Positions 1-13,568 of a DNA stretch of 64,000 nt are shown piece by piece. Every line of letters begins with the position of its first letter. Position 1 is the stretch's first letter. The DNA is from Gammaproteobacteria bacterium (GTDB lineage Bacteria; Pseudomonadota; Gammaproteobacteria; Tenderiales; Tenderiaceae): positions 48,653-112,652 of the forward strand of contig JACQEP010000007.1 in the NCBI GenBank assembly GCA_016200485.1. The letters run 5' to 3'. Below the pieces are notes generated by a model. It was given only the letters and a program-made list of their open reading frames with translations, ran no database searches and was not told the origin of the DNA. Made by a program: the position numbers and the translations under genes.

Positions 1-1
1 C

Positions 2-1402
2 GAAAATCATCGCATCGAATACAAGCGCGAACTGACGGACGACCTGGAAAAACAAGTCGTCGCTTTTCTCAATGCACGTGACGGTGGCGTCATTTACCTT
101 GGCATTGACGATGAAGGCAACGCGACGGGGGTAGACGAGTGCGATCAGCTCCAATTGGTAATCAAAGACCGGCTCAAAAACAACATCCAGCCCTCCATCA
201 TGGGGTTGTTTGAAATCATCCACGAACAAATGCAGGGTAAGGATGTCATTCGCCTCACCCTGGCAGGCGGATTGGAAAAGCCCTACTACCTGAAAAAATA
301 CGGCATGACCGAAAAAGGGTGCTATCTGCGCGTCGGCAGTGCCGCAGAACCCATGCCTCAGGCGATGATTGAAACACTTTTCAGCAAGCGGGTGCGTAAC
401 ACCATTGGCCGCATGGAATCACCACGTCGCGATCTTAGCTTTGAACAGCTCAACATTTACTATCAGGCCCGCGGCCTCCACCTCAATGACGCATTCATGA
501 AAAGCCTGGAGCTGCTCACGCCCGATGAAAAGCCCAACTATGCTGCCTATTTGCTGGCCGATGAAAACGGCGTCTCTTTACAGATAGCCAAATACGCAGG
601 CACTGACCGGGTCGATCTGATCGAAAACCGCGACTATGGCCGCTGCTCACTGGTCAAGGCGCTCAAAGCGGTGCTGGAACGTATCGAAGTGGAGAACACT
701 GTCTACACCAAAATCGGCTACCCCTTACGGCAGGAGCGGGCGATGATCGACGCCATCGCCATGCGCGAGGCCGTGATCAATGCCGTGGTCCACAACGATT
801 ACTCCTATGGCGCCAGCCCCAAAGTGGAGTTTTTCTCCGACCGGGTCGAGATCACCTCCATGGGCGGTCTGCCTTATGGTGTGACCGAAGAGGACTTTTT
901 CAGCGGTTGCTCCATTCCCCGCAACAAAGAGATCATGCGCGTGTTTCGTGACCTGGAGATTGTCGAGCACCTCGGCTCCGGCATACCGCGCATTCTGGAA
1001 AAATACGCACGCAACGCCTTTGAGATCCGCAGCAGCTTTGTGCGGGTGATATTCCCCTACAACAAACCCTTTGAAGAAACCGCCCCCGGAACCGAGGCCC
1101 AGGCAGGGGTAGAGTCAGGGGTAGAGTCAGGGGTAGAGTCAGGGGTAGAGTCAGGGGTAGAGTCAGAAATGGCTTTGCAGATCATGACATTGCTTATGTC
1201 TGCCGCGCTATCCAAAACCGAAATAGCCAACGCCCTTGGTAAACAAAAACCAACCCGCTATCTCAATGATTTGATGAAAAAACTACTGGAAGCGGGCCAA
1301 GTGGCCTACACCCTGCCCGGCAAACCCAACAGCCGCCTGCAAAAATACCGGCTGACCGATGCAGGCCATGCCCTGCTGAAAACATTAAAAGACGAGAAAT
1401 AA
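2..1402 (+). CDS. AlbA_2 ('divergent AAA'/Schlafen-like) + HATPase_c_4 domain DNA-binding ATPase-like protein with C-terminal winged-helix; 5' end lies outside the window (frame open from position 2).
   Basis: ORF 155..1402 has no stop upstream in the same frame back to position 2. The upstream residues (ENHRIEYKRELTDDLEKQVVAFLNARDGGVIYLGIDDEGNATG) match the AlbA_2 N-terminal domain. The HLGSGIPRI motif is typical of HATPase_c_4. The C-terminal MTLLMS..KTEIANALG segment reads as a winged HTH. The stop lies 2 nt before the hsdM ATG. Confidence 0.75.
   Translation, partial: ENHRIEYKRELTDDLEKQVVAFLNARDGGVIYLGIDDEGNATGVDECDQLQLVIKDRLKNNIQPSIMGLFEIIHEQMQGKDVIRLTLAGGLEKPYYLKKYGMTEKGCYLRVGSAAEPMPQAMIETLFSKRVRNTIGRMESPRRDLSFEQLNIYYQARGLHLNDAFMKSLELLTPDEKPNYAAYLLADENGVSLQIAKYAGTDRVDLIENRDYGRCSLVKALKAVLERIEVENTVYTKIGYPLRQERAMIDAIAMREAVINAVVHNDYSYGASPKVEFFSDRVEITSMGGLPYGVTEEDFFSGCSIPRNKEIMRVFRDLEIVEHLGSGIPRILEKYARNAFEIRSSFVRVIFPYNKPFEETAPGTEAQAGVESGVESGVESGVESGVESEMALQIMTLLMSAALSKTEIANALGKQKPTRYLNDLMKKLLEAGQVAYTLPGKPNSRLQKYRLTDAGHALLKTLKDEK
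1104..1163 (+). repeat. Perfect 12-bp tandem repeat (caggggtagagt) x5, in frame, encoding (GVES)5 in the linker of the AlbA_2/HATPase_c_4 protein.
   Basis: Direct reading of the sequence gives five identical contiguous 12-mers followed by a partial 'cag'. Confidence 0.95.
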
Positions 1403-1404
1403 CC

Positions 1405-3066
1405 ATGCTGCAAAATAACCCCGAACTAAAAGCAAAAATCGACCAGCTCTGGAATAAATTCTGGAGCGGCGGTATCTCCAATCCACTCACCGCCATCGAG
1501 CAGATTACCTACCTATTGTTCATGAAGCGGCTCGATGAAATCGACCAAAAAAAACAGGCCGATGCCGAATGGACAGGTGAGTTATATCTTTCCAAATTCG
1601 AAGGAACCTGGATGCCGCCGCAATATCGCGGGCAAAAGGATGAGAAAAAATACGCCATTGAAAAATACAAACTTCGCTGGGGTGAATTCAAAAACTATCA
1701 TGCCGAAGAGATGCTGGCTCATGTACAAACCAATGTCTTTCCTTTCCTGAAAGACCTTAACGGTGGCGAGTCAAAATTCACGCACCACATGAAAAATGCC
1801 GTCTTCATCATCCCCAAACCAGCGCTACTGGTAGAGGCAGTGAAGACCATCGACGAAATCTTCGGCATCATGGAGAAAGACTCCCAGGAAACCGGCTGCG
1901 CCTTTCAGGATATCCAGGGGGACGTCTATGAATTCCTGCTCTCTGAGATCGCCAGTGCCGGAAAAAATGGCCAATTCCGCACCCCGCGCCATATCATCAA
2001 GATGATGACTGAACTGGTGCAACCGCAACTGGGCCAGAACATCATCGACCCAGCCTGTGGTTCCGGCGGATTTTTATTGGGGGCCTATCAATACATCATC
2101 ACCCAATTAGCCATTAACGCCGGAGCTACCATCAAAATAACGCCCGACGAAGATGGCTTTAGGCGTACCTCCATCGCCGCAGGGAACACTGAAAATGCCC
2201 AAAGCATCCTGCAACGCACACTGCATGGCTATGACATCGACAGTACCATGGTACGCCTTGGTCTCATGAACCTGATGATGCACGGCATCAACGATCCGCA
2301 GATCGACTACAAAGACACCCTCAGCAAGAGCTTTAACGCCGAAGGCGAATATAACATTGTCATGGCCAACCCGCCCTTCACCGGCAGCATCGACAAGGGC
2401 GATATCAACGAACACTTGCAACTGGCCACCACCAAAACCGAACTGCTGTTTGTCGAGAACATCTACCGCCTGCTGAAAAAAGGCGGCACCGGCTGTGTCA
2501 TCGTGCTGCAAGGCGTGTTGTTCGGTTCCGGCAAGGCCTTCAAGGATCTACGCGAAACCCTGGTGACGCGCTGCGACCTCAAGGCCGTTATCACCATGCC
2601 CAGCGGCGTCTTCAAACCCTATGCCGGGGTCAGTACCGCGATTCTCCTCTTCACCAAGGTGTGGGGACCAAAAGAGAATGTCATCAAACCAGCCACCGAA
2701 CACGTCTGGTTCTACGAAATGGCCGCCGATGGTTATTCGCTGGACGACAAACGCACGAAGCTCGAAGGCCATGGCGACTTGCAGGACATCATCGCCAAAT
2801 ATCACGCACGTAATGCAGAGACAGACACCGACCGTACCCAGAAATATTTCATGGTGCCGCGCACTGACATCGAGGCCGAAGGTTATGACCTGAGCTTAAG
2901 TCGTTACAAGGAAGATGTATTTGAAGAGGTGGAGTACGAAGCCCCGGCGGTAATACTGGATAAGTTGCTCAAGGCGGAAGTGGGTAATGCCAGTGACAAG
3001 GAGCTGACCAAGGTACAGAGTGGCATTGTGCGCGAGTTGTTGGAGTTACGGGAGATGATTGGATGA
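1405..3066 (+). CDS. hsdM: Type I restriction-modification system, DNA methyltransferase subunit M (N6-adenine).
   Basis: HsdM N-terminal signature (LWNKFWSGGISNPLTAIEQITYLLFMKRLD), GQFRTPRHII, AdoMet motif I (DPACGSGGFL) and catalytic motif IV (NPPF). Stop overlaps the hsdS start (ATGA). Confidence 0.93.
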   Translation: MLQNNPELKAKIDQLWNKFWSGGISNPLTAIEQITYLLFMKRLDEIDQKKQADAEWTGELYLSKFEGTWMPPQYRGQKDEKKYAIEKYKLRWGEFKNYHAEEMLAHVQTNVFPFLKDLNGGESKFTHHMKNAVFIIPKPALLVEAVKTIDEIFGIMEKDSQETGCAFQDIQGDVYEFLLSEIASAGKNGQFRTPRHIIKMMTELVQPQLGQNIIDPACGSGGFLLGAYQYIITQLAINAGATIKITPDEDGFRRTSIAAGNTENAQSILQRTLHGYDIDSTMVRLGLMNLMMHGINDPQIDYKDTLSKSFNAEGEYNIVMANPPFTGSIDKGDINEHLQLATTKTELLFVENIYRLLKKGGTGCVIVLQGVLFGSGKAFKDLRETLVTRCDLKAVITMPSGVFKPYAGVSTAILLFTKVWGPKENVIKPATEHVWFYEMAADGYSLDDKRTKLEGHGDLQDIIAKYHARNAETDTDRTQKYFMVPRTDIEAEGYDLSLSRYKEDVFEEVEYEAPAVILDKLLKAEVGNASDKELTKVQSGIVRELLELREMIG

Positions 3067-4643
3067 GAACCGTTGCTCTCGGTGAAATTTGCAAAATTGT
3101 ATCGGGCTCAACCCCTAAAAGGAATAAACCAGAATATTGGGGAGGAGAAATCCCATGGGTTACGCCTAAAGAACTTAGCAAGATGGGATCTCCATATTTG
3201 GAAGATTCCATGGAAAAAATTACTGAACTTGGCTTCAAGTCATGTTCAACAACAATGTTGCCACCTAGGTCATTGCTGCTTAGCTCTAGAGCTCCTATTG
3301 GTTTACTGGCTATAAACAAAAAGAGTGTTTGCACGAATCAAGGTTTCAAAAGCTTGGTGCCATCAGAAGAGGCTCATGTTGAATATCTCTACTACTTCTT
3401 GAAAAACAATATTGGGGCATTACAAGCAAAGGGTAACGGCGCAACTTTTAAAGAATTATCAAGGTCTTCTGTAGAAGAGTTCAAAATCCGCCTCCCACCA
3501 CTTGACGACCAAATCCGCATTGCCCATCTGCTCGGCAAAGTGGAAGGGCTGATCGCCCAGCGCAAACAACACCTGCAACAACTCGACGACCTGCTCAAAA
3601 GCGTCTTTCTGGAGATGTTTGGCGATCCGGTGCGGAATGAGAAGGGGTGGGACATTCAACCTTGCCAAAAAGCCGTATTGGATATTTCTTCAGGCACAAG
3701 TTACGGCGGTGAAGACAGGGCGTTTGTAGGTTCTGACGAAGTTGGAGTGCTGAAGATAAGTGCAGTAACAAAAGGCACATTTGATCCAGCAGAGTTTAAG
3801 GTTGTTAATCCAGCGCAGATAACGAAGACACTTCGCTTTGTTAAGCGTGGCGATTTTCTGTTTAGTCGTGCAAATACGGTCGAGCTTGTTGCTGCATGCT
3901 GCGTTGTTCCACAGGACTACGCACGGTTATTTCTGCCCGATAAGTTATGGGTTTTGACTCTCAATGCTGAGTTAGTAAATTCGCAATTCTTCAATCGCTT
4001 GCTGAAGAATGAACGCTTTCGAGATGTCGTAAGAAGCCTGGCGAGCGGCGGCCACGATTCGATGCTGAATATTTCGATGAAGAAATTTATGACTCTCGAT
4101 ATTCCATGCCCGCCGATCAATCTCCAAAATCAATTCGCCGCAATCGTTGAAAAGATCGAAGGTATCAAATCCCACTACCAACAAAGCCTCACAGAACTAG
4201 AAAACCTCTATGGTGCATTAAGCCAAAAGGCCTTCAAAGGGGAGCTAGATTTGTCGCGTGCCCCTCTGTTAGTGAAGCTGGATGTCGCCGACAACCTAAC
4301 AATGCAACTGGAAGAGAAGGCGGGCCAGAGACATGTAACTACATCCATTGATGTGGTTGATGAGTACCCCATGTCAAACCCGGCTGCCCGCGAGAGGCTG
4401 CTTCGTAGGCTGTTTGATGAGTTTATACAAGACCTGAAAAAAGGTGCCGTCTTGTCGTTAGATTACTTCTGGCAATCAGTGCACTGGAAAGCCGTGGATT
4501 TTACGCACGAAGGGGAGCAGCCCTTTGGCTCGGCGGAGTATGAGCTGGTAAAACGCTGGTTGTTTGAATCTATTAAGTCGGGGCAGTTGGAACAGGCTTT
4601 TGATGAGGATAACAACAAAATTGCGCTGAAGTTGACAGGCTGA
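3063..4643 (+). CDS. hsdS: Type I RM specificity subunit S with two target-recognition domains plus an unusual ~128-aa C-terminal extension.
   Basis: TRD1 start (GEICKIVSGSTPKRNKPEYWGGEIPWVTPKEL). Central conserved region (LPPLDDQIRIAHLLGKVEGLIAQRKQHLQQLDDLLKSVFLEMFGDP). Second conserved region (NLQNQFAAIVEKIEGIKSHYQQSLTELENLYGALSQKAFKGEL). Coding continues ~128 aa past the usual HsdS end. TRD1 (3063-3480) is visibly AT-rich relative to the conserved spacers. Confidence 0.9.
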   Translation: MRTVALGEICKIVSGSTPKRNKPEYWGGEIPWVTPKELSKMGSPYLEDSMEKITELGFKSCSTTMLPPRSLLLSSRAPIGLLAINKKSVCTNQGFKSLVPSEEAHVEYLYYFLKNNIGALQAKGNGATFKELSRSSVEEFKIRLPPLDDQIRIAHLLGKVEGLIAQRKQHLQQLDDLLKSVFLEMFGDPVRNEKGWDIQPCQKAVLDISSGTSYGGEDRAFVGSDEVGVLKISAVTKGTFDPAEFKVVNPAQITKTLRFVKRGDFLFSRANTVELVAACCVVPQDYARLFLPDKLWVLTLNAELVNSQFFNRLLKNERFRDVVRSLASGGHDSMLNISMKKFMTLDIPCPPINLQNQFAAIVEKIEGIKSHYQQSLTELENLYGALSQKAFKGELDLSRAPLLVKLDVADNLTMQLEEKAGQRHVTTSIDVVDEYPMSNPAARERLLRRLFDEFIQDLKKGAVLSLDYFWQSVHWKAVDFTHEGEQPFGSAEYELVKRWLFESIKSGQLEQAFDEDNNKIALKLTG

Positions 4644-4648
4644 TCCTG

Positions 4649-6454
4649 GTGAAACTGTTGCGGCTAAAGATCACCGATCCTGCTGGTTTCCGCAGCCTGC
4701 AGCCGGGTTTCGAGTATCTCTTCCGTACGCCCTGGGAAATCGAAAGCGAGTTGCAGGAGGGGCAGGGCTTTGCGCCTTTTGTTTGTGCTGGACCAAATGG
4801 CAGCGGTAAGTCCAATCTGCTCGAAGTTCTGGCGGCAATATTTTTTAGCATTGAAAGCCGTTATTTGGATTTTTTACCAGATCAATTTGCCGAAAACGGT
4901 GAGGAAGTCGATGTATTTACATCGACAAATACCAAGCCCGACAGCTTCGAGCTGGAATACTTGATACCTCATGAGACTAATACCAGTCCCGTCGAATTTA
5001 AGGACGCTCATGTTGTCATATCAAAAACAGCGGGAAATAGTCCAGAATTGAATTGTTTAAATAAAAGCGAGTTCGGCATTGATGAAAAGGACTCTATTTC
5101 TCGACAACAAGCCAAAAAACTATTACCGCAGTATGTTCTTGGTTGCTCTTCGGGGGAAAACGAGATATTGAGCCTGCCTTTTTTCAAGCTGCGTTTTGTC
5201 CAGTTCGATGAATATTGGAATGCGCTAAGCAACCAATTGCCTTATCCAGGTAGACCAGAAACTAGGCTTGCCTATCTCGATAGTTCCTTTAGTCAGGCGA
5301 TTTTGCTCTGCAATCTGCTCTTTCAGGATGCAGAAACGCTAATGCCATTTCGCGAAGACGTTGGCGTGGAGGAACTGAGAGAGTTTCGTATTATTATCAA
5401 GCGCAGCATCGATGTTTCCGCTGAGATTGCTGCGAAATTTGAAAGAGGAGGTTTTGCTGAAGAGGGTTATGCGCAGGGTGGATATTATGCCAGTAATCCA
5501 GCGCTTACCTTGGACGGCGAGACCGGTCGTCACACCATTAATCTCATGCGCCTGCTTGAGGCCGGTAAAGATTCCGCAGAGAATTTTGATCCAATCGTTA
5601 CACGTCTAAAACGATGTGCGACTTGCTCCTTCGTGGATGAAACAACCGATACGCTTTATCTCGATTATTACGTCAATGAAGCAACTAAAGAGGCGTTCAA
5701 AGAAAATTTCGATTATTCGCCAATAGCATTGTTTCAGGCGTTTCAGGTCTTGCTCTCACTTAATCTCTATTCCGTTAGCGATACATTGAAAAGTAACCTG
5801 TACAAATCCGATAGCCTTTATGTTGGGGAAACCGTGCCAATCTTAGCCTCTGATGAGCGCATTATGAGATTTAAGCATTTTCTGTTAAAGAAAAGGGGCG
5901 CTGAAGAATCTGTGCTTCTTAAAAGCCTATCTGATGGCGAGCATCAGCTTTTGCACATCCTTGGCCTATGTTTGTTGTTCAGAAATACCAACAGTCTATT
6001 TCTGCTCGATGAGCCGGAAACCCACTTCAACCCGGACTGGCGTTCGAACTTTATCACGCGCCTGCGCCAGTGTTTTCGCGAGTCCACAGATACCCATGAA
6101 ATGCTTGTTACGACCCATGCCCCCTTCTTAATCTCCGACAGTAAACCAGAAAAGGTACTGGTCTTTAAGAAAGACGAGGGGCTCGGAACGGTCAACATCA
6201 GCAAACCGGATTACAACACCCTGGGCGCATCGATTAACAAGATCACTATGAATACCTTCGGCAAACGGGAAACTATTGGCGGCTATGCACAGTCGATTCT
6301 TGAGGGTCTGCGTAACCGGTTTGAAGGTGGCGAGGACAAGGATCAGCTCATTAATGAGATTAATCAGCAACTGGGCGACTCGGTTGAAAAGGTACTGCTG
6401 ATCAAGACTATCCTTGATGGCATGGAGGGTGAGGGTAATGCTGTTCCCGTATAA
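4649..6454 (+). CDS. ABC/SMC-type (AAA_21/AAA_15-like) ATPase, GTG start; candidate PtuA-like defence ATPase.
   Basis: Walker A (GPNGSGKSN), ABC signature-like (LSDGEHQLLHILG), Walker B/D-loop (LFLLDEPETHFNP) and H-loop (TTHAPF). GTG at 4649 lies 5 nt after the hsdS stop. An insertion between Walker A and the signature is typical of SMC/OLD/PtuA-like ATPases. Confidence 0.85.
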   Translation: MKLLRLKITDPAGFRSLQPGFEYLFRTPWEIESELQEGQGFAPFVCAGPNGSGKSNLLEVLAAIFFSIESRYLDFLPDQFAENGEEVDVFTSTNTKPDSFELEYLIPHETNTSPVEFKDAHVVISKTAGNSPELNCLNKSEFGIDEKDSISRQQAKKLLPQYVLGCSSGENEILSLPFFKLRFVQFDEYWNALSNQLPYPGRPETRLAYLDSSFSQAILLCNLLFQDAETLMPFREDVGVEELREFRIIIKRSIDVSAEIAAKFERGGFAEEGYAQGGYYASNPALTLDGETGRHTINLMRLLEAGKDSAENFDPIVTRLKRCATCSFVDETTDTLYLDYYVNEATKEAFKENFDYSPIALFQAFQVLLSLNLYSVSDTLKSNLYKSDSLYVGETVPILASDERIMRFKHFLLKKRGAEESVLLKSLSDGEHQLLHILGLCLLFRNTNSLFLLDEPETHFNPDWRSNFITRLRQCFRESTDTHEMLVTTHAPFLISDSKPEKVLVFKKDEGLGTVNISKPDYNTLGASINKITMNTFGKRETIGGYAQSILEGLRNRFEGGEDKDQLINEINQQLGDSVEKVLLIKTILDGMEGEGNAVPV

Positions 6455-7526
6455 ATACGTTCCGCACCAGATGGAGAAGATGCAAGAGTTTATCGACTTT
6501 ATCTTTTTTGAGGTGTGGTGCAAGGCTCTTTGGGAAGAGTACGATATTTCCCTCTTCAACAGTTGCCCAGAGCTGAAAACCATGATCGAAGGTCTGTACC
6601 ACACGGAGCCCAAGGGGGCAGATTTTTTCATAAAAGGCATTCAACAGATTTTCGATCAATTCAAAGTTCTGAATTATTTTGACTTGATGCGAATGCAAAG
6701 GTGGTACGAGGCAAATAACAATATAGAAGCAGCTTGTAGTCGAAAAGGAAAGGTTAATCCTGTTAGGTATGGCTCTTTAGGAAAAAGCTTCAATGAGCGG
6801 TACCAAGGGCTGAGTAAATCGCTTCACGCGTTCTTCAAGGACCTCTATTCACCAAACTTCTTAACGCTGAAAATTATTGAAAATGCGATTGGTAATATCG
6901 ACGACCATTATCAGCACTTCGTGCAGGTAAACACTGCGGGAAAATGCCCGTTTTGCGGAATCGGTGACGTGAAGGGCGTGCATCACACCAAGCGCGAAGC
7001 CTACGACCACTATCTCCCCAAGGCGCTCTACCCGTTTAGCTCAATCAATTTCCGCAACCTTGCTCCGGCCTGCCACGAGTGCAACAGCACCTATAAGCTC
7101 AGCAAGGACCCGGTGAATACTGCCGCAGGTCGTCGCAAGGCCTTTTACCCCTACGCTGATCCTGGTTCCAATATCGAAGTGACGATTGAACTCAGCAAGC
7201 CGGATGTTGATGATCTCACTCCTGCTGATATTCAGCTTGCCTTCGGTCCGTCGGAGTTAAATGAAGAAATTGAAACATGGAAAGATGTATACGGTATCGA
7301 GGAGCGGTATCGAGGAAAGTTGTTGGAAGGAGATGGAAAAGCGTGGCTCACAGAAATTTTGGACGAATGGAAATGGAAGGAAGTGAGCAATGGCAACGAA
7401 GGGCGCTCTCCCGCTGAATACCTTCGGGCCCTAAACCGTCACGTAACAAATTCACCATTTACAGGGGCTAATTTTCTCAAAAAGGCATTTCTTGAAGCAT
7501 GTGAAAGACAAAAATTGTTTGGCTAA
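6438..7526 (+). CDS. HNH-family endonuclease with an N-terminal ~170-aa domain of unknown function; candidate PtuB-like nuclease partner of the upstream ATPase (alternative start at 6414).
   Basis: HNH zinc/catalytic motif (CPFCG...HHTKREAYDHYLPK...FRNLAPACHECN). ATG at 6438 is preceded by GGAGGGTGAGGG and overlaps the ATPase stop at 6454. The N-terminal half is AT-rich. Confidence 0.8.
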   Translation: MLFPYKYVPHQMEKMQEFIDFIFFEVWCKALWEEYDISLFNSCPELKTMIEGLYHTEPKGADFFIKGIQQIFDQFKVLNYFDLMRMQRWYEANNNIEAACSRKGKVNPVRYGSLGKSFNERYQGLSKSLHAFFKDLYSPNFLTLKIIENAIGNIDDHYQHFVQVNTAGKCPFCGIGDVKGVHHTKREAYDHYLPKALYPFSSINFRNLAPACHECNSTYKLSKDPVNTAAGRRKAFYPYADPGSNIEVTIELSKPDVDDLTPADIQLAFGPSELNEEIETWKDVYGIEERYRGKLLEGDGKAWLTEILDEWKWKEVSNGNEGRSPAEYLRALNRHVTNSPFTGANFLKKAFLEACERQKLFG

Positions 7527-7842
7527 GAAATGATTAAATGAGCCGGGCTCGATTTGGTCATTTGCCCATTATGCAAAATCAAAGATCATTGGTGAAGAAT
7601 GGCGCTCAGACAATCAATTTTTGAGGTGATCAATTAGCCTGCTTAAGAGGCGCGTTGTGGGTAAGCGCCGTTATGAATTAGACTAAGCAAAGATTCAGAG
7701 ATTTTTCAGGGGTGGGATCAGGAAGACCCGTGCTACAAACCCTGACTCAGGTTTCGCGACCTATCGTCTCAAGGTCTATCCCATTAGGCTGGGGTCCACC
7801 CTTTTCAACTTTATAATTGTACAGCTGATGGGGGTGGGTCAG

Positions 7843-8115
7843 ATGAGCAGAGAAAATAGAATCCGTTGCAACAACATTGACTACCGGAAAGGCTTTGTCG
7901 AAGTTGAGTCTGGTGTCCACGTGGGTTGCATAACCTTAGAAACATGGAATGTTAAAATGGACCTGGATATTTCGAATCTAGACCTTTCGGATGAAGCCAT
8001 ACCAGAAGATAGCGTTACAGGAAACACAGAAATAGAAATGAGTGTTACTGAAGCCGAACAGCTAATTCAATTACTACAAAACGCAATTGATCTGGTCAGA
8101 AAAGGAAACGTATAG
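7843..8115 (+). CDS. Hypothetical small acidic protein (90 aa) in an AT-rich spacer.
   Basis: Open frame with a purine-rich stretch before the ATG. No recognisable motif. Confidence 0.25.
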   Translation: MSRENRIRCNNIDYRKGFVEVESGVHVGCITLETWNVKMDLDISNLDLSDEAIPEDSVTGNTEIEMSVTEAEQLIQLLQNAIDLVRKGNV

Positions 8116-8266
8116 CCACGTCCAGTGGATTGCTCTACGAAGTGGGTGCTTCAAATCCAGTGGTTCGGGCTTGATCTGATTGGCTCATATCATTTTATCG
8201 AATGGCCGGGTTCGGCCTAGAGCTGTAGTTCATAGTTTGTTAGCTGAACGTCTGCTTTAATGGTAA

Positions 8267-8928
8267 GTGCTTGTTATAGCATGCTTTGGATTTCCTTTGA
8301 TTGAATGGAGGATTCGGTGCGCAAACTTCATGCCTTCACTACATAGTGCCTGGAATAAAGGAAGACTAGTTGGGCAAAAGCTACCGCTGATGCAGCTATC
8401 TGAGAATATCAGGGATCTAGCGCTCTTCAATCTAGCCATCGATAGCACAAGCTTAGAGGTTGTGACTTAGTGAGGCTAATAGTCAGTGACCTCACACATG
8501 GCTCATCAATACTTAAGTGCGCAATGATCATGCAACAGAAAACCAAGCAACCTGTTCAGTTCGAGATTACAGATCAAATCAGGAAGGCCGTATTAGGCTT
8601 GATAGCCCTTCAGTATCTGAAATACAATGACACTCTCTTCCAAAGTCGTTTTCATCAATCACCTCATATCTATACCCGACAATCCGCCAGGATGGTCGGG
8701 TAATGGGTAAATGATATCGGACTAGACCCTGCGGATTACGGCGCTCACTCTATAAGAAGAACCAAGGTCTCGTTGATCTATCGGCAAACCCACAACTTGA
8801 GAGCATCCAGCTACTCCTCGGTCACACCAGATTGGAAAGTACTGTTAGGTATCTTTAGATATCTTGGTATAGAGGTAGATGATACCCTGGAAATATCAGA
8901 ACGGATGGAAATATAGCCATCCATCCCC
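8267..8928 (+). pseudogene. Tyrosine recombinase/phage-type integrase remnant (catalytic domain only), disrupted by frameshifts, an in-frame stop and a ~10-bp duplication.
   Basis: Integrase-like peptides in three frames: AWNKGRLVGQKLPLMQLSENIRDLALFNLAIDSTSLEVV | LIVSDLTHG...QPVQFEITDQIRKAVLGLIAL..FQSRFHQSPHIYTRQSARMVG stop(TAA 8701) | DIGLDPADYGAHSIRRTKVSLIYRQTHNLRA | IQLLLGHTRLESTVRYL stop | GIEVDDTLEISERMEI. The N-terminal arm/core-binding domains are absent. Confidence 0.8.
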
Positions 8929-8960
8929 CACACCTAGAAGCATTTTACACTTAAAAGTAA

Positions 8961-8988
8961 GGGAGCAGGACAGCCTGCTCCCTTTTAT
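8961..8988. terminator. Bidirectional rho-independent terminator (GGGAGCAGG-acagc-CTGCTCCC flanked by A-run/T-run).
   Basis: Perfect 9-bp stem with AAAAG upstream and TTTTAT downstream. Lies between the integrase remnant (+) and the 3' end of the minus-strand gene 8990..9334. Confidence 0.7.
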
Positions 8989-8989
8989 A

Positions 8990-9334
8990 CTATTCGCCAG
9001 TGTAATTGGCAGCGATGTAGTTGCCATCCGGAGTATAGAATAGATATAAAGTTTGCTTGGAGGCGTCACTCACTTTCTCATTCTTGAATATCACCACCCA
9101 TTCAGGGCCGTCTGCAAAGGTCTTTTGTTCTACCGAAGCGGGTTGAATTCCAGACCAGGACGCATCAATTTTTCCGGCCGTTGCCAGTTGTTCAACTTTT
9201 TGCATTGCCTTGCCAGAGGTCACATCCGCAGAAACGGGCCCATGAGAATGGCCGTGATCGTGCCCTGATCCTGCATATATTGGGTTTGCAAAAAACAAGA
9301 ACAGTGAAACTAGTGTAGAAATTAGATAACGCAT
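8990..9334 (-). CDS. Secreted His-rich putative metal-binding periplasmic protein (114 aa).
   Basis: Start MRYLISTLVSLFLFFANPIYA (signal peptide) preceded by GGAGGA. GSGHDHGHSHGP His-rich motif. The longer ORF-track start (9409) is upstream of the RBS and is rejected. Confidence 0.6.
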   Translation of the reverse strand: MRYLISTLVSLFLFFANPIYAGSGHDHGHSHGPVSADVTSGKAMQKVEQLATAGKIDASWSGIQPASVEQKTFADGPEWVVIFKNEKVSDASKQTLYLFYTPDGNYIAANYTGE

Positions 9335-9350
9335 AAATCCTCCAGGTCTA

Positions 9351-9485
9351 TTAATTGATGGTGTCATGTTGATTTGTTTGATCATGTGAGTGCCCATTAC
9401 CATGGGCATGGCCGTCTTCTGATGAGCATGCAGAAAATAGCGTTAAACTTGAACAGGTGAATATTATCAAAACTAACTTGTGCAT
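9351..9485 (-). CDS. 44-aa His-rich lipoprotein-like peptide (MHKLVLIIFTCSSLTLFSACSSEDGHAHGNGHSHDQTNQHDTIN), absent from the ORF track.
   Basis: GGAGGT RBS 6 nt upstream of the ATG. Lipobox-like LFSAC. Same GHxHGxGHSH motif as the downstream gene, and tandem with it. Confidence 0.45.
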   Translation of the reverse strand: MHKLVLIIFTCSSLTLFSACSSEDGHAHGNGHSHDQTNQHDTIN

Positions 9486-9501
9486 TATTTACCTCCTATC
9501 G

Positions 9502-10692
9502 TTAATCAATGCTTTCATGTCTTGCCTGGAGTTTTGGAGCTGGTTCGTTAATTACCTTATTTTTATCCACTAGCTGATATTCGCCATTTACTTTTAGCGA
9601 AATGGTGATAGGTGTGTGGGTGTTGTTTTTCCAATACCAACCATGTGTACCTGCAAATGTAGAGGTTAAAGAGCCGCTTGACTGGCTTTCCGTACTCTTG
9701 TGGAAGCTTTTGAAATAGCCGGTGGTATCGCCTGCGGGTTCACCATGAAAATCATAAAACAGTGGCTCGCCATCTGTTCGCCATGAATAGTTAAACGTCG
9801 CACCTTTGGCTAGAAAGAGTTTGTACTCCTTATCACCTCTGGCAGGTATCGTGACAGCGATGGAATCTTTCCACTCTGTAGACTCCATGCTTGCAAGGCC
9901 TCCTTGCACGGCAGTAGATTGCGCGGAGGCTTCTTTACTTGCGCCTAGCTCTTTATTGATGGTGTGCTCATAACCATGCATTTGCATGAAAAATAGGTAA
10001 ATTCCCATGGCTATCAAGGCATAGTTTGCAATCAGGCTGAACGCTTTGAAACCATGGGTTTTACGCCATGCCGCAATCAGCAATAACATCAGGAACAGCG
10101 CGCTGATTTGTCCCAGTTCGATGCCTATGTTGAACGAAATAATATTCAGTAACAGTCCGTCTTCGCTTAGCGGCAGTTCCTGCAAACGCGTGGATAAGCC
10201 AAAACCATGGATCAGCCCAAGCCCAATGATCATCAGCATCATGTTAGGTGGGTTAATACCAAGATATTTACGAAAGCCGTCAATGTTAGCGAAAGCGATA
10301 TAACACACACTGAGCGCAATCACTGCATCAATGAGGAAGTAGTTAAGCTGAATCGCGTTAAATGTGGCGAAAATCAGCGTGACACTGTGCCCCAGTGTAA
10401 ACGCGGTCACGTATTTGGCAATATCCCGAAAGGTGGTTAGGAAGAAGATGATCCCGAAGACAAACGCAAGATGGTCGTAGCCGGAAAGCATGTGTGTAGC
10501 GCCTAGCCACAAATACTGCACGTTACCACCGTCGATGATTGCCTGTTTTTCCGCTCCAGACATACCATGAGCAAAGGCAAGATTGGAAAACAATGCAAAC
10601 AGCACGAGCCCGGTGATTAGAATAAACAGATTTCGTTTGACTAACATGGCTTGATTATTCTGGGGTAATGAGATTGCTTTGCTGCTAATCAC
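9502..10692 (-). CDS. HupE/UreJ-family (Ni/Co) membrane transporter fused to a ~140-aa C-terminal soluble domain.
   Basis: HupE/UreJ signature HMLSGYDHLAFVFGIIFF. Multiple TM segments over ~250 aa, followed by a hydrophilic tail (KELGASKEASAQ...WKNNTHTPITISLKVNGEYQLV). Confidence 0.7.
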   Translation of the reverse strand: MISSKAISLPQNNQAMLVKRNLFILITGLVLFALFSNLAFAHGMSGAEKQAIIDGGNVQYLWLGATHMLSGYDHLAFVFGIIFFLTTFRDIAKYVTAFTLGHSVTLIFATFNAIQLNYFLIDAVIALSVCYIAFANIDGFRKYLGINPPNMMLMIIGLGLIHGFGLSTRLQELPLSEDGLLLNIISFNIGIELGQISALFLMLLLIAAWRKTHGFKAFSLIANYALIAMGIYLFFMQMHGYEHTINKELGASKEASAQSTAVQGGLASMESTEWKDSIAVTIPARGDKEYKLFLAKGATFNYSWRTDGEPLFYDFHGEPAGDTTGYFKSFHKSTESQSSGSLTSTFAGTHGWYWKNNTHTPITISLKVNGEYQLVDKNKVINEPAPKLQARHESID

Positions 10693-10997
10693 AGGCGACC
10701 TCCTTTTTCGGCAGCTGTTACCCAGTAAACGCCATGTCCCGTGAGATTGGCTTGCGCCTCACTAAGCTTTGCCAATACAGCATTTACATCAGTATCCTCA
10801 AGTAAAATATCTGTCCGTATACGTGGGGCATAGCCAACCACGTTATCGTGTGCAGTTATAAAAGGGTCGCTTTCCACTTCTACACCATGACCTTCGACGT
10901 GGCTAAAGGTAAAGCCTGAGACCTGATCAATAGTGCGTAATAAATCAGCCAGTTGTTGCTGAACGTTCGTATGAACAATAAGCGTTAATACTTTCAT
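10689..10997 (-). CDS. Small P-II-fold/DUF3240-like protein of the kind found beside cation-efflux genes.
   Basis: 102 aa. MKVLTLIVHTNVQQQLADLL...GHGV pattern. 4-nt overlap with the HupE/UreJ gene. The family assignment is from memory. Confidence 0.5.
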   Translation of the reverse strand: MKVLTLIVHTNVQQQLADLLRTIDQVSGFTFSHVEGHGVEVESDPFITAHDNVVGYAPRIRTDILLEDTDVNAVLAKLSEAQANLTGHGVYWVTAAEKGGRL

Positions 10998-11141
10998 GCG
11001 TATTCCTCTGCAATGAATCGAATCTTTAGGGTTGCCAGTGCACCAGAAATCGGCTGCATTACTGGCTTAAATTTATGTCGCATGGATACGGTCGGCTCGA
11101 GTCTAAGTCGAGCGAGCATCAATACATTGATAGAGAAACGC

Positions 11142-11558
11142 TTAAAGTGGTGGTGCGCGAAGCGGTGGGATTAGATGAAATCGACGGGGAAGGCTAACGT
11201 TGCCACGATTTATAGGAAATTTATTTCGATATAGCCCAGGTACGGGCAGGAACAGCACGATGCCTATTAAGGCTGCCATCAGTAGATTGCTAGCTACCTG
11301 TTTTAAGCAGTCCGGGCATGCATCAATCACTGTTGTTGTTTCATCATGGTGATCCTGATGGGAGCTGTCTAAAGAAAGGTGAGCCCCACCAATGTGAGAG
11401 TGTCCATTGATATTGTCGATTGAGTGATGACCTTGATGCGAGTCATGATCAAAGCTGTGGACATGTAGAGTTACGCCTTGAGCTGACAGCATTAGCAATG
11501 AAAGCAATACTGTCCACGCAATCAATATTCTCTTATCTATTTTACGAAAAAAATCCAT
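11142..11558 (-). CDS. His-rich secreted/membrane-anchored putative metal-binding protein (DUF2946-like?).
   Basis: N-terminal signal/TM. HVHSFDHDSHQGHHSIDNINGHSHIGGAH...HQDHHDE. CPDC motif. C-terminal hydrophobic segment. Confidence 0.5.
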   Translation of the reverse strand: MDFFRKIDKRILIAWTVLLSLLMLSAQGVTLHVHSFDHDSHQGHHSIDNINGHSHIGGAHLSLDSSHQDHHDETTTVIDACPDCLKQVASNLLMAALIGIVLFLPVPGLYRNKFPINRGNVSLPRRFHLIPPLRAPPL

Positions 11559-11665
11559 CGTGGCAGTCTAGCAACTTAAGTGTCCAAGTGTAAATCGGAT
11601 ATTATTTGATCCAATTCGACAATAAGGAAAAATTCTTTATTTTGACAAGCCTTATTCATGTGTAC

Positions 11666-11941
11666 TTATTTGAGATAGGAGCGTAACACTGCCACAACCT
11701 GCTCCAGATCCTCATTGCGCTGCTGAGGCGTCACACCCTCAGCGCCTAGATGCTCCCTGAGATGCCCCTCCAGCACTTCAGTCATGAGGCCATTTACCGC
11801 ACCACGAATCGCCGCAATCTGCTGAAGAATCGCCACACATTCTTTATCTTGTTCCAGGGCCTTTTCTAAGGCCTCTGTCTGCCCTTTGATGCGGCGTAAT
11901 CGGGTCAGCAGTTGTTTCTTACCTTCAATCGTATGCGACAT
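11666..11941 (-). CDS. RcnR/FrmR/CsoR-family metal-sensing transcriptional repressor (DmeR-like), 91 aa.
   Basis: N-terminus MSHTIEGKKQLLTRLRRIKGQTEALEKAL matches the RcnR/FrmR family. Divergent to a CDF transporter. The longer ORF-track start is rejected. Confidence 0.8.
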   Translation of the reverse strand: MSHTIEGKKQLLTRLRRIKGQTEALEKALEQDKECVAILQQIAAIRGAVNGLMTEVLEGHLREHLGAEGVTPQQRNEDLEQVVAVLRSYLK

Positions 11942-11962
11942 GGTTTCTCTTTCTAAGAGAGG

Positions 11963-11981
11963 TATACTGAGGTATAGTATA
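11963..11981. promoter_or_regulatory. Candidate RcnR/DmeR operator: inverted repeat TATACT-N7-AGTATA in the divergent intergenic region.
   Basis: tatactgaggtatagtata contains TACT-N7-AGTA, resembling the E. coli RcnR site consensus TACT-G6-N-AGTA. An adjacent direct repeat GAGGTATA x2 is present. Confidence 0.5.
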
Positions 11982-12011
11982 TGCCAATATGAATCAAGTA
12001 GACAAATTTCG

Positions 12012-12974: not shown

Positions 12975-13203
12975 ACACATAAGTGGCGCAATATAGCTTG
13001 GACAAGAGCCCGAAGAGGAATAAGGGAATGTCTGCTATCGCGATTCCTGCCGTTCGCTCCATAGTAGACATTCGCTAACTCCACTTTCAAAGGCAGCAAA
13101 GGGTCGTTCTGAGTCATTAAAAATTCAAGCGAATCCGACGTTCTCTGTTATATCAAGCACCATATCTTCCTGTCACCAAATGCGGATACCTGGGGAAGGG
13201 TGA

Positions 13204-13263
13204 ATTACGCAAAATTACCTGTGTCATGCGTAATTATGCAAATCGCGCGTAATTATGCGTAAT
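13204..13263. repeat. Iteron-like array of the 7-mer GCGTAAT (one inverted ATTACGC copy plus three direct copies, two of them as GCGTAATTATGC).
   Basis: Direct reading: gaATTACGCaaaattacctgtgtcatGCGTAATTATGCaaatcgcGCGTAATTATGCGTAATctgg. Confidence 0.6.
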
Positions 13264-13352
13264 CTGGCGGGGCAACTTATTGGCGTAGGGACTATTTAGG
13301 GGCGTGATCTCCACGGTCAACGAAGAGACAATGTATCCTGAGATCGCTTTTA

Positions 13353-13568
13353 TCAAGCCACAAACCGCACCTTATGCCTCGCCAACGCAATCGTTACCGT
13401 CGCCCCGACATTAAATTCCAGATAATCGCCTTCAATCCCGTCGCTGAAAATCACACCATTGCCCGTCATCTGTGAGTGAATAATGAGTGGCAGTTCGTTG
13501 GTGACCACGCCGAAGATGTGTGAGGTCTGCGTGGGCTTGCTCGGAAACGGTTCCCGTACCGCAAACAT
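13353..13568 (-). CDS. Hypothetical small protein, possibly a gene fragment.
   Basis: Open frame only. No motif recognised. Start uncertain. Confidence 0.2.
   Translation of the reverse strand: MFAVREPFPSKPTQTSHIFGVVTNELPLIIHSQMTGNGVIFSDGIEGDYLEFNVGATVTIALARHKVRFVA

What the first reader, a model, noticed from the sequence alone, without database searches (positions are those of the whole stretch)
2..7526. Five-gene translationally coupled locus AlbA_2/HATPase – HsdM – HsdS – ABC ATPase – HNH nuclease, with no HsdR downstream
- The five genes are separated by 2, -4, 5 and -17 nt. Stop/start overlaps of this kind argue for a single operon and stoichiometric co-production.
- A classical type I system needs HsdR for restriction. 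Here the M and S genes are followed not by HsdR but by an SMC/ABC-type ATPase plus an HNH endonuclease.
- Either a Septu-like abortive-infection/defence pair has been inserted into a type I locus whose hsdR lies upstream of the window, or the ATPase/HNH pair serves as an alternative effector for an M2S methylation/recognition module. The second reading would be a new RM-defence hybrid architecture.
- The adjacent integrase scar, the AT-rich patches and the in-frame tandem repeat in gene 1 all mark this as horizontally acquired accessory DNA.
Basis: partly seen in the sequence, partly recalled or inferred. Interest (0 to 1): 0.85.

Follow-up and report, generated by a model that had tools for sequence, protein, structure and literature searches.

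The report
Type I restriction operon carrying Septu-like pair
The five genes are real and tightly packed, but they are the right-hand part of a widespread, already-labelled type I restriction operon (its cutting subunit gene almost certainly lies just off the window's left edge) that carries a Septu-like ATPase plus HNH nuclease as an add-on, apparently linked to an extra tail domain on the specificity subunit.

Summary
**Observation confirmed.**
- Five same-strand genes lie at 2-7526 with junctions of +2, -4, +5 and -17 nt.
- There is no hsdR anywhere in the 64 kb window.
- The GVES repeat and the integrase scar are real.

**Headline interpretation not supported.**
- The ATPase is a full-length member of NCBIfam TIGR04435, 'restriction system-associated AAA family ATPase'.
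- In all 56 related loci with enough upstream DNA, an EcoEI-type hsdR sits upstream on the same strand.
- The order is R-[variable gene]-M-S-ATPase-HNH.
- Gene 1 fills the variable slot and lacks only about 3 codons at the window edge, so hsdR is expected immediately upstream.
- E. coli RefSeq genomes already annotate the same cassette.

**What is worth keeping.**
- The ATPase is structurally closest to Septu PtuA.
- The HNH partner has no curated family.
- HsdS carries a C-terminal linker plus winged-helix domain. That tail occurs with the ATPase-HNH pair (38 loci) and is absent from 14 sister loci that lack the pair.
- Those sister loci have near-identical R and M genes and carry Gabija or other cargo, or nothing, after hsdS.
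- I read this as a type I system that has co-opted a Septu-type module. That reading is inference: contiguity of the DNA is the rival explanation.

Interest is moderate.

The parts
2..1402 (+). Gene 1: AlbA_2 (Schlafen-like) + HATPase_c_4 + C-terminal wHTH protein. It lacks about 3 N-terminal codons at the window edge. It occupies the variable cargo slot between hsdR (off-window) and hsdM.
   Evidence: Pfam hits. Alignment with the L063 and L006 homologues, which lie between hsdR and hsdM. Other relatives hold KilA-N, RhuM/Fic, Bro-N or YhcG genes in this slot.
1104..1166 (+). Perfect 12-nt x 5.2 in-frame tandem repeat, (GVES)n, in the linker before the C-terminal wHTH of gene 1.
   Evidence: TRF result. 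Homologues have VTPE x6 or VTAQ x7 at the same place.
1405..3066 (+). hsdM, the type I N6-adenine methyltransferase subunit (553 aa, NPPF motif present).
   Evidence: HsdM_N + N6_Mtase. PADLOC MTase_I at 552 bits. It is 74-81% identical to 80 metagenome relatives.
3063..4643 (+). hsdS, the type I specificity subunit (526 aa): two variable TRDs, conserved regions CR1 (aa ~141-200) and CR2 (aa ~361-400), plus a C-terminal tail.
   Evidence: Methylase_S. PADLOC Specificity_I PDLC03117 covers residues 8-523. Conservation profile.
4269..4355 (+). HsdS tail linker (aa ~403-431). It is variable in sequence and length and is predicted disordered.
   Evidence: AF2 pLDDT below 50. Tail length after the CR2 motif runs from about 125 aa up to about 290 aa in relatives, apart from shorter values where the motif matched inside the tail.
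4356..4640 (+). HsdS C-terminal winged-helix domain (aa 432-526), the proposed adaptor for the ATPase/HNH pair.
4649..6454 (+). TIGR04435 'restriction system-associated AAA family ATPase': a PtuA-like ABC/SMC-type ATPase of 601 aa with a GTG start. Walker A GPNGSGKS, signature LSDGEHQ, Walker B LLDEPE and the TTH H-loop are intact.
   Evidence: NCBIfam 806 bits against a cut-off of 300. PADLOC PtuA at 2e-48. Invariant motif columns. The AF2 model's Foldseek top 47 PDB hits are all PtuA.
6438..7526 (+). HNH nuclease partner (362 aa), with a zinc-ribbon type HNH core at aa ~165-220 and family-specific N- and C-terminal regions.
   Evidence: PADLOC PDC-M01B at 4e-16, PDC-M62B, and PtuB at 3e-8. 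Invariant C170-x-x-C173, D190-H191, N204, N207 and C212-H-x-C215-N216. No Pfam, NCBIfam or PDB sequence match.
8336..8913 (+). Degraded tyrosine recombinase (integrase) pseudogene split over at least three reading frames. It marks the edge of a mobile element.
   Evidence: Stop-to-stop segments. The stitched sequence hits Phage_integrase PF00589 at 1.5e-14.

Best explanation
**What it is**
- The window starts about 3 codons inside the second gene of a six-gene type I restriction-modification operon.
- The gene order is hsdR (off-window, EcoEI type), gene 1 (AlbA_2/HATPase_c_4, a swappable cargo gene), hsdM, hsdS, a PtuA-like ABC ATPase (TIGR04435), and an HNH nuclease.
- R, M and S make an ordinary restriction enzyme.
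- The last two genes are a Septu-type ATPase-nuclease module that this RM lineage carries as its commonest accessory.

**How it most likely works (inferred)**
- The pair is coupled to the RM complex through the extra C-terminal part of HsdS, a flexible linker ending in a winged-helix domain.
- That tail would tether the ATPase-HNH complex or hold it in check.
- The pair would then act as a second line of defence, either when the RM complex is blocked by an anti-restriction protein or when it engages foreign DNA.
- This would parallel retron Ec78 sequestering PtuAB and EcoprrI masking PrrC.

**Shown versus inferred**
- Shown: gene content, family memberships, the conserved order with hsdR upstream in relatives, co-inheritance, the fold of the tail, and its co-occurrence with the pair.
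- Inferred: the presence of hsdR in this particular genome, physical tethering, the trigger, and the nuclease target (DNA or tRNA).
For: **Family and cassette**
- TIGR04435 full-length hit at 806 bits against a cut-off of 300.
- 80 of 80 closest ATPase relatives, from at least 10 phyla, have M-S immediately upstream and HNH downstream. Three apparent exceptions were ORF-calling artefacts.
- HsdR is upstream in 56 of 56 loci with enough sequence.
- E. coli RefSeq annotates R-M-S-'restriction system-associated AAA family ATPase'-'HNH endonuclease'.
- L063 and L006 have the same six genes, including the gene 1 homologue.

**Co-inheritance**
- Pairwise distances of ATPase and HsdR correlate at rho 0.68. 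For R and M the value is 0.80.

**Septu likeness**
- PADLOC PtuA and PtuB hits.
- The closest PDB sequences are PtuA and AriA.
- The Foldseek top 47 hits are PtuA from Septu and from retrons Ec78/Ec83.

**The HsdS tail**
- In 54 loci chosen by HsdM similarity only, HsdS is 498-679 aa in the 37 loci followed by ATPase-HNH, and 384-431 aa in 14 loci not followed by it.
- There are three oddities. L093 has a frameshifted long HsdS with the pair. L115 has a long HsdS with no pair. L103 carries a 206-aa HsdS fragment with no pair.
- Fisher p = 4e-11, not corrected for phylogeny. There are at least 12 independent changes on the HsdM tree.
- HsdR at 96% and HsdM at 98% identity work with either form of HsdS, so the tail is dispensable for RM.
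- The winged-helix core is nevertheless conserved and folds confidently.
- The domain is found nowhere except HsdS C-termini among 1.84 billion representatives.

**Precedents**
- Retron co-option of PtuAB (PMC12819146).
- PrrC and PARIS as RM guardians (PMC12707154).
Against: - hsdR of this genome could not be read. The upstream DNA was not retrievable.
- No interaction was tested or predicted; only single chains can be modelled here.
- The tail and the pair are contiguous DNA, so joint gain or loss needs only one event. L119 lost the winged helix, ATPase and HNH through one deletion with its breakpoint in the linker.
- The slot after hsdS is a general cargo site. It holds Gabija, PDC-S06/AAA_13, an LmuB-like ATPase, PDC-M04A, PDC-S11 or Fic in tail-less sisters. 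This fits independent passengers.
- Septu works as a stand-alone pair.
- One lineage (L115/L103) keeps the tail without the pair.
- Tail-ATPase distance correlation is weak (0.41; 0.22 after controlling for R), and it is nil for tail-HNH.
- The winged-helix fold is generic and could simply bind DNA.
- The ATPase model is of medium quality (pLDDT 70), and TM-scores to PtuA are only 0.3-0.48.
Confidence: 0.6

Rival explanations
1. Co-located but independent systems. A normal type I RM operon carries a stand-alone Septu-like abortive or nuclease system as a passenger in its 3' cargo slot. The two are co-transcribed but do not interact. The HsdS tail has an unrelated role, or none, and travels with the pair only because it is adjacent DNA.
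For: - The same slot holds Gabija, PDC-S06, PDC-M04A, PDC-S11, Fic and an LmuB-like ATPase in sister loci.
- Septu PtuAB is known as a stand-alone pair (PMC12819146).
- The L119 deletion removed the tail domain and the pair together.
- Tail-HNH distances do not correlate.
- 'Guilt by embedding' of one system inside another is common (PMC12255303).
Against: - None of more than 115 ATPase-bearing loci lacks the tail. None of the loci with other cargo has it.
- The winged-helix core is conserved under selection although near-identical R and M function without it.
- This ATPase family was found only next to hsdS: 80/80 genome loci, 10 E. coli genomes plus one IS3-truncated remnant, and 1/1 viral contig.
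- R-ATPase co-divergence is nearly as strong as R-M.
Confidence: 0.3
2. The pair is an auxiliary component of restriction itself rather than a guardian. It would be recruited by HsdS to DNA-bound or stalled RM complexes, where the HNH adds cleavage or nicking, or processes restriction products. It would be an extra nuclease arm working alongside HsdR.
For: - E. coli Septu PtuAB was reported to act on nicked DNA (cited in PMC11555353).
- The tail would place the pair at HsdS-bound target sites.
- The operon is tightly coupled.
Against: - RM sisters with 96-98% identical R and M lack the pair entirely, so it is not needed for restriction.
- Other PtuAB systems cleave tRNA-Tyr (PMC11555353; PMC13096335).
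- There is no direct evidence here.
Confidence: 0.07
3. One reading: an HsdR-less system in which M2S recognises and methylates DNA, and the ATPase/HNH pair replaces HsdR as the restriction effector.
For: No hsdR in the 64 kb window. The M-S-ATPase-HNH genes are tightly coupled.
Against: - Every relative with enough upstream sequence has hsdR on the same strand: 56/56 genome loci, 10 E. coli genomes and 1 viral contig.
- The window ends about 3 codons into gene 1. In L063 the homologous gene starts 2 nt after hsdR.
- HsdR is the best-conserved protein of the cassette, at 83% mean identity.
Confidence: 0.03

Closest known systems
Septu (PtuA ABC ATPase + PtuB HNH nuclease), E. coli PtuAB structures 8EE4/8EEA/8SUX
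   Same: - A two-gene ATPase + HNH pair with overlapping genes.
- The ATPase matches PADLOC PtuA models (2e-48).
- Its AF2 model's best PDB matches are PtuA.
- The HNH core matches PtuB and PDC-M01B/M62B models. In the Bacillus cereus-group survey, most systems PADLOC called PDC-M01/M62 were the ones DefenseFinder called Septu (PMC11811056).
   Different: - It is not stand-alone. It always follows hsdS of one type I lineage.
- The ATPase is a separate curated family, TIGR04435. It scores 37 bits against the NCBIfam PtuA cut-off of 500.
- The HNH protein is about 360 aa, with N- and C-terminal regions that have no Pfam, NCBIfam or PDB sequence match.
- An HsdS tail domain accompanies it.
Retron Ec78/Eco7 and Ec83 (type I-A retrons) that co-opt PtuAB
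   Same: A Septu-type pair is attached to a different sensing or recognition machine that sequesters and regulates it. PtuA acquired elements for that partnership (PMC12819146). These PtuA chains are the top structural hits.
   Different: The partner here would be a type I RM complex, through an HsdS winged-helix tail, not a reverse transcriptase and msDNA. No interaction has been shown.
PrrC / EcoprrI (and RloC): an anticodon nuclease embedded in a type I RM locus
   Same: An ABC-type ATPase effector is encoded inside or next to hsdS of a type I operon. It is the paradigm of an RM 'guardian' released when restriction is inhibited (PMC12707154). A PrrC-related AAA_13 / PDC-S06 protein occupies the very same slot in sister locus L098.
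   Different: The effector here is two proteins, with an HNH nuclease rather than a fused anticodon-nuclease domain. The gene order is R-M-S-X rather than M-S-PrrC-R. The trigger is unknown.
PARIS (AriA ABC ATPase + AriB Toprim nuclease)
   Same: An ABC ATPase plus nuclease pair that senses anti-restriction proteins (PMC12707154). AriA is among the weak PDB and PADLOC hits.
   Different: A different nuclease (Toprim versus HNH), only weak similarity, and no obligate link to RM.
TgvAB, the GmrSD-like pair embedded in the Vibrio cholerae VPI-2 type I RM cluster
   Same: A two-gene defence module inside a five-gene type I RM region, co-located with hsdR, hsdS and hsdM (PMC12409362).
   Different: Unrelated proteins (DUF262/DUF1524 type IV restriction). 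It lies between hsdR and hsdS, acts independently, and no S-subunit adaptor has been described.

Membership tests
NCBIfam TIGR04435, restriction system-associated AAA family ATPase | Full-length HMM score above the curated cut-off of 300 bits | tested here: met
   806.3 bits, residues 1-592 on profile positions 1-567 of 568. Sources name the identical protein this way.
NCBIfam TIGR04435, restriction system-associated AAA family ATPase | Encoded next to restriction-system genes | tested here: met
   hsdS ends 5 nt upstream in the window. The same holds in 80/80 genome relatives, in E. coli and in a viral contig.
Type I restriction-modification system | HsdM: N6-adenine methyltransferase with an HsdM_N domain | tested here: met
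   PF12161 + PF02384. PADLOC MTase_I at 552 bits.
Type I restriction-modification system | HsdS with two target recognition domains and conserved spacer regions | tested here: met
   PF01420. PADLOC Specificity_I at 385 bits over residues 8-523. Variable TRDs and conserved CR1/CR2.
Type I restriction-modification system | HsdR: a helicase-nuclease subunit encoded in the locus | tested here: inconclusive
   Absent from the 64 kb window. Present upstream in 56/56 relatives, and 2 nt upstream of the gene 1 homologue in L063. The DNA upstream of the window could not be obtained.
Septu (PtuAB) | PtuA: an ABC/AAA_15-AAA_21 ATPase recognised by PtuA models or by fold | tested here: met
   PADLOC PDLC00293 PtuA at 2.1e-48, plus about 14 further PtuA models among the 25 listed. 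Foldseek top 47 PDB hits are PtuA, E 4e-11 to 1e-7. It does not reach NCBIfam PtuA NF041760: 37 bits against a cut-off of 500.
Septu (PtuAB) | PtuB: an HNH nuclease encoded immediately downstream | tested here: inconclusive
   Only the HNH core (aa ~162-228) matches PtuB models, at 3e-8 and 1.3e-7. Better hits are the candidate models PDC-M01B (4e-16) and PDC-M62B. A profile of 73 homologues finds no PtuB chain in the PDB by sequence. No structure model was possible.
Septu (PtuAB) | Stand-alone two-gene system | tested here: not met
   Always the 3' end of an R-M-S operon in the relatives sampled. The only ATPase-HNH pair without R-M-S is an IS3-truncated remnant.
PrrC/RloC-type RM-linked anticodon nuclease | A single polypeptide with an ABC ATPase N-domain and a C-terminal anticodon-nuclease domain (Pfam AAA_13) | tested here: not met
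   No AAA_13 or PrrC hit for the window ATPase among the hits listed. The nuclease is a separate HNH protein.
PrrC/RloC-type RM-linked anticodon nuclease | Kept latent by the RM complex and activated by an anti-restriction factor | not testable with these tools
   Needs genetics or biochemistry. Only the tail/pair co-occurrence is suggestive.
MADS (methylation-associated defence system) | MAD2 methyltransferase and MAD3 ATPase equivalogs above the NCBIfam cut-offs | tested here: not met
   MADS2 scores 97.6 bits against a cut-off of 720. MADS3 scores 30.6 bits against 420.

The most novel reading that the evidence does not exclude
A lineage of type I restriction enzymes has co-opted a Septu-type ATPase-HNH module through a dedicated adaptor. 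The adaptor is a flexible linker plus winged-helix domain added to the C-terminus of HsdS, and it docks the ATPase (kleisin-like) or the HNH. The result would be an RM-Septu holoenzyme in which the RM complex senses or licenses and the PtuAB-like pair executes. It would be a third mode of PtuAB deployment, beside stand-alone Septu and retron-Septu. The module is exchangeable as an hsdS-3'/ATPase/HNH cassette between otherwise identical R-M backbones.
Probability: 0.4. Interest if true: 0.7.

Novelty: new variant of a known kind. Interest (0 to 1): 0.45.

Why it matters
**How common it is**
- The cassette occurs in at least 10 phyla, including E. coli, Enterobacter, Citrobacter, Serratia, Pseudomonas, Xanthomonas, Shewanella, Nitrosomonas, Chlorobium and cyanobacteria.
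- Annotation pipelines already label it.
- I found no paper that describes what the ATPase-HNH pair does there.

**What would follow if the tail is an adaptor**
- It would show how a classical restriction enzyme is wired to a second-line effector.
- It would give a simple sequence marker, a long HsdS with a winged-helix tail, for that wiring.
- It would extend the principle seen in retron Ec78, where PtuAB is a portable effector that other sensors capture.

**Relevance for screening**
- The case shows that 'no hsdR' calls at a window edge are unsafe.
- The 3' end of hsdS in this lineage is a swap site for defence cargo. Gabija, PDC-S06 and others are found there.

Tried and rejected
**Reading the DNA upstream of the window (failed)**
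- Exact-protein look-ups for HsdM and the ATPase returned only short Logan contigs that stop inside gene 1 or start at the ATPase.
- A search with the partial gene 1 protein did not return the window's own protein.
- An exact 47-nt pattern from the window start found nothing in the metagenome contigs.

**Structure prediction limits**
- The HsdS tail model therefore uses database fragments (A4).
- No usable alignment was available for the HNH protein, so it was not modelled.

**Searches that returned nothing useful**
Stop-to-stop segments were stitched instead.
- The HNH protein, alone and as a 73-sequence profile, found no significant PDB sequence match. It has no Pfam or NCBIfam family.
- Literature searches for TIGR04435, the family name, or Septu/PtuAB together with type I RM found no description of this cassette.
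- The ABC-ATPase classification paper PMC7544218 is not held.

**Ideas rejected**
- MADS membership: scores are far below the cut-offs.
- RptR as a relative of gene 1: it is an unrelated small repressor.
- A distant search for E. coli relatives of the cassette HsdR found only the same 10 genomes plus short, irrelevant helicase matches.
- Three loci that seemed to lack hsdM or hsdS were artefacts of my ORF picking.
- Promoter and terminator scans gave nothing above chance.
- No tRNA gene flanks the island.


Full report
**1. What is in the window**

Five ORFs lie on the + strand:

| Gene | Coordinates | Note |
|---|---|---|
| gene 1 | 2..1402 | open at the window edge |
| hsdM | 1405..3066 | |
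| hsdS | 3063..4643 | |
| ATPase | 4649..6454 | GTG start |
| HNH | 6438..7526 | |

- The HNH start at 6438 is correct. The N-terminus MLFPY.YVPHQMEKMQ is conserved in 72 homologues.
- Pfam gives the following:
  - gene 1: AlbA_2 + HATPase_c_4 + a C-terminal Fic-like_C wHTH;
  - hsdM: HsdM_N + N6_Mtase;
  - hsdS: Methylase_S;
  - ATPase: AAA_21/AAA_15/SMC_N;
  - HNH protein: nothing.
- PADLOC gives MTase_I (552 bits) and Specificity_I (385 bits, covering residues 8-523). For the ATPase it gives PtuA (2.1e-48). For the last protein it gives PDC-M01B (4e-16), PDC-M62B and PtuB (3e-8).
- The catalytic residues are intact. In the ATPase these are Walker A, the signature motif, Walker B and the H-loop. 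In the HNH protein they are CxxC...DH...N...CHxCN.
- tblastn with a cassette HsdR finds no hsdR anywhere in the 64 kb.
- The 12-nt x 5.2 in-frame repeat (1104-1166) is real.
- The 'integrase scar' is real. Stop-to-stop segments between about 8336 and 8913, when stitched, hit Phage_integrase at 1.5e-14.
- hsdS, the ATPase, HNH and the downstream stretch are 0.44-0.46 GC. The rest of the window is 0.524 +/- 0.035. Gene 1 and hsdM are not AT-rich.
- Promoter and terminator scans inside the locus are at chance.

**2. The ATPase is a named family**

- NCBIfam TIGR04435, 'restriction system-associated AAA family ATPase', matches end to end at 806 bits against a cut-off of 300.
- NCBI and JGI give that name to the identical protein and to many homologues at 64-75% identity.
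- I found no paper on the family or on a Septu/type I RM cassette.

**3. hsdR is upstream in every relative**

- A scan of one genome per species with an ATPase alignment returned 80 loci. They come from Proteobacteria, Desulfobacterota, Chlorobi, Nitrospirota, Cyanobacteria, Planctomycetota, Verrucomicrobiota, Lentisphaerota, Chloroflexota and others.
- ORF maps and clustering show one architecture: a ~932-aa ORF, then 0-2 variable genes, then hsdM, an occasional YhcG-type nuclease gene, hsdS, the ATPase and HNH.
- The ~932-aa protein is HsdR, with ResIII, HSDR_N, Helicase_C and EcoEI_R_C domains.
- All 56 loci with more than 8 kb upstream of the ATPase have it on the same strand.
- Three loci that seemed to lack M or S were artefacts of my ORF picking.
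- Junction distances are conserved:
  - M/S overlaps by 4 nt in most loci;
  - S/ATPase is mostly -4 to +6 nt;
  - ATPase/HNH overlaps by 1 nt in 75 of 78 loci.
- Ten complete E. coli genomes carry the cassette. RefSeq annotates it as DEAD/DEAH helicase (or type I subunit R), subunit M, subunit S, restriction system-associated AAA family ATPase and HNH endonuclease. It sits in an ICE-like island.
- An eleventh E. coli genome keeps only an IS3-truncated ATPase plus HNH.
- The single viral-contig relative also has R-M-S-ATPase-HNH.

**4. Gene 1 fills a variable slot, and the window edge hides hsdR**

- Between hsdR and hsdM, relatives carry KilA-N, RhuM/Fic, Bro-N, YhcG or nothing.
- L063 and L006 carry a homologue of gene 1 there (63% and 53% identity).
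- The L063 homologue starts MTESNRIEYKREL, and the window starts ENHRIEYKREL. Only about 3 codons are missing.
- In L063, hsdR ends 2 nt before that gene.
- The HsdR-less hybrid reading is therefore a window-edge effect. I could not read the upstream DNA directly.
- The homologues have other tetrapeptide repeats (VTPE x6, VTAQ x7) at the same linker. The repeat is a recurrent property of this protein, not a mark of recent transfer.

**5. The cassette is inherited as a unit, but its 3' part is exchangeable**

- Across 50 complete loci, mean pairwise identity is 83% for R, 82% for M, 66% for the ATPase and 55% for HNH.
- Pairwise distances of the ATPase and HsdR correlate at rho 0.68. The R-M value is 0.80.
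- A reciprocal scan chosen on HsdM similarity only (74-81% identity) returned 80 metagenome loci.
- Fifty-four of them have a complete hsdS and at least 1.5 kb downstream:

| Group | Loci | HsdS length |
|---|---|---|
| ATPase-HNH follows hsdS | 37 | 498-679 aa |
| no ATPase-HNH | 14 | 384-431 aa |
| L093: frameshifted long HsdS, pair present | 1 | 442 + 110 aa |
| L115: long HsdS, pair absent | 1 | 531 aa |
| L103: HsdS fragment, pair absent | 1 | 206 aa |

- The tail-less loci are scattered through the HsdM tree, with at least 12 parsimony changes.
- Their nearest neighbours carry the pair. For example, L153 versus L006 shows HsdR 96% and HsdM 98% identity.
- In tail-less loci the position after hsdS holds other defence cargo:
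  - Gabija (GajA 1085 bits, GajB 872 bits);
  - an AAA_13 / PDC-S06 protein related to PrrC;
  - an LmuB-like ATPase;
  - PDC-M04A;
  - PDC-S11;
  - Fic.

**6. The HsdS tail**

- After the conserved CR2 motif (...AFKGELDLSR), short HsdS proteins end within 10-42 residues.
- Long ones continue for about 125-160 residues, and up to about 290.
- The first ~40 residues of the tail are variable.
- The last ~90 residues are conserved. F469, Y493, K497, F501, Q511 and N518 are at least 90% conserved.
- AlphaFold2 on HsdS 355-526, with 67 database fragments, gives three parts:
  - the CR2 helix;
  - a linker with pLDDT below 50 (aa ~403-431);
  - a confident (86-97) a1-b1-a2-a3-b2-b3 winged-helix domain (aa 432-526).
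- Pfam has no model for the tail.
- phmmer of the tail against 1.84 billion representatives finds 68 proteins. Every full-length one is 500-613 aa, with the match at its extreme C-terminus.
- Tail versus pair gives 38/2/0/14, Fisher p = 4e-11, uncorrected for phylogeny.
- The caveat is that the tail and the pair are contiguous DNA. L119 lost the winged helix, ATPase and HNH in one deletion with its breakpoint in the linker.
- Tail-ATPase distance correlation is weak, and tail-HNH correlation is nil.

**7. Relation to Septu**

- By sequence, the nearest solved chains to the ATPase are PtuA and AriA. The match covers only the C-terminal ~100 residues, at E 5e-6 or weaker.
- The AF2 model (pLDDT 70, pTM 0.72) has PtuA from Septu and from retrons Ec78/Ec83 as its top 47 Foldseek hits. 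E-values run from 4e-11 to 1e-7, and TM-scores are only 0.3-0.48.
- In a Bacillus cereus-group survey, most systems that PADLOC called PDC-M01/M62 were the ones DefenseFinder called Septu (PMC11811056).
- Literature on PtuAB:
  - E. coli ATCC25922 Septu PtuAB was reported to act on nicked DNA, while retron-Eco7 PtuAB degrades tRNA-Tyr (PMC11555353);
  - a Septu system that inhibits phage T6 cleaves tRNA-Tyr (PMC13096335);
  - retron Ec78 sequesters and regulates PtuAB through elements that PtuA acquired (PMC12819146).
- RM 'guardians' such as PrrC and PARIS fire when restriction is inhibited (PMC12707154).

**8. Verdict**

- The exciting interpretation, an RM module using ATPase/HNH instead of HsdR, is not supported.
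- The locus is one more member of a widespread, database-labelled cassette: R-[cargo]-M-S-ATPase-HNH.
- What remains of interest is that the cassette is experimentally uncharacterised. The Septu-like pair also comes with a dedicated HsdS winged-helix tail that near-identical RM backbones do without.
- My preferred mechanism, at about 0.4-0.6, is that the tail tethers or restrains the pair so that it acts as a second-line effector of the RM complex.
- The main rival, at about 0.3, is an independent passenger whose linkage to the tail reflects DNA contiguity.
- Interest is 0.45.
- Novelty: a variant of known kinds (Septu; RM-embedded guardians). The locus itself is an ordinary member of that variant.

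Noticed in passing
window 1104-1166; L063 and L006 gene 1 homologues: The (GVES)n 12-nt repeat sits in the linker before the C-terminal wHTH of the AlbA_2/HATPase_c_4 protein. Homologues carry different tetrapeptide repeats (VTPE x6; GVES x2 + VTAQ x7) at the same position. This suggests a recurrently expanding, length-variable linker.
   Followed up: partly
window ~8336-8913 (+): A tyrosine recombinase pseudogene broken over at least three frames. Stitched, it hits PF00589 at 1.5e-14. No tRNA gene lies in window 1-20000.
   Followed up: yes
window 6430-6454: The ATPase/HNH junction differs from the family norm. In 75 of 78 relatives the genes overlap by 1 nt (the last base of the stop codon is the A of the ATG). 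The window contains TAATG, but its ATPase frame reads through it for 5 extra codons (…GNAVPV*), giving the 17-nt overlap. A 1-nt indel near the 3' end of the ATPase gene is the likely cause.
   Followed up: partly
L085 10867-14477; L098 9519-11927; L126 10876-13482; L164 10938-11690; L100 7321-8208; L140 11181-12197: In sister RM loci with a tail-less HsdS, the position right after hsdS carries other defence cargo, often overlapping the hsdS stop. The cargo is Gabija (GajA/GajB), an AAA_13 / PDC-S06 protein with weak PrrC similarity, an LmuB-like SMC ATPase, PDC-M04A (DUF3800), PDC-S11 (DUF4268) or Fic. The 3' end of hsdS in this lineage behaves as a cargo swap site.
   Followed up: partly
L119 2873-4168 versus L114 10704-12473: Two loci share the same HsdS core (77% identity) and 97% identical HsdM. 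L119 keeps the first ~35 residues of the tail linker, then diverges. It lacks the winged-helix domain, the ATPase and HNH, which looks like a single deletion with its breakpoint in the linker.
   Followed up: yes
L115 10868-12463 and L103: One lineage keeps a long HsdS with the conserved winged-helix tail but has no ATPase/HNH. A GGDEF gene on the opposite strand follows. It is the only exception to the tail/pair rule, and it is unexplained.
   Followed up: partly
L110, L111, L121, L125 (HsdS 663-679 aa): Some HsdS tails are about 290 residues long. They have a long, apparently helical and repetitive insert between CR2 and the conserved C-terminal winged-helix motif. The tether length is therefore highly variable.
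   Followed up: no
L084 (E. coli Br_167_kylling, NZ_CP182378 724271-727059): An IS3 insertion or deletion removed hsdR-hsdM-hsdS and the 5' end of the ATPase gene, leaving an orphan ATPase-HNH next to a CBASS system.
   Followed up: yes
50 complete cassettes among L003-L082: HsdR and HsdM are 82-83% identical on average across at least 10 phyla, while the ATPase (66%) and HNH (55%) diverge much faster. This points to recent wide horizontal spread of the backbone and faster evolution of the accessory pair.
   Followed up: partly
window 7828-8115 and 8990-13000: A 95-aa ORF with no family follows the HNH gene. Beyond the integrase scar lies a metal-handling cluster: DUF6488, HupE/UreJ_2, P-II/DUF3240, a metal-sensing repressor and a cation efflux protein.
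   Followed up: no
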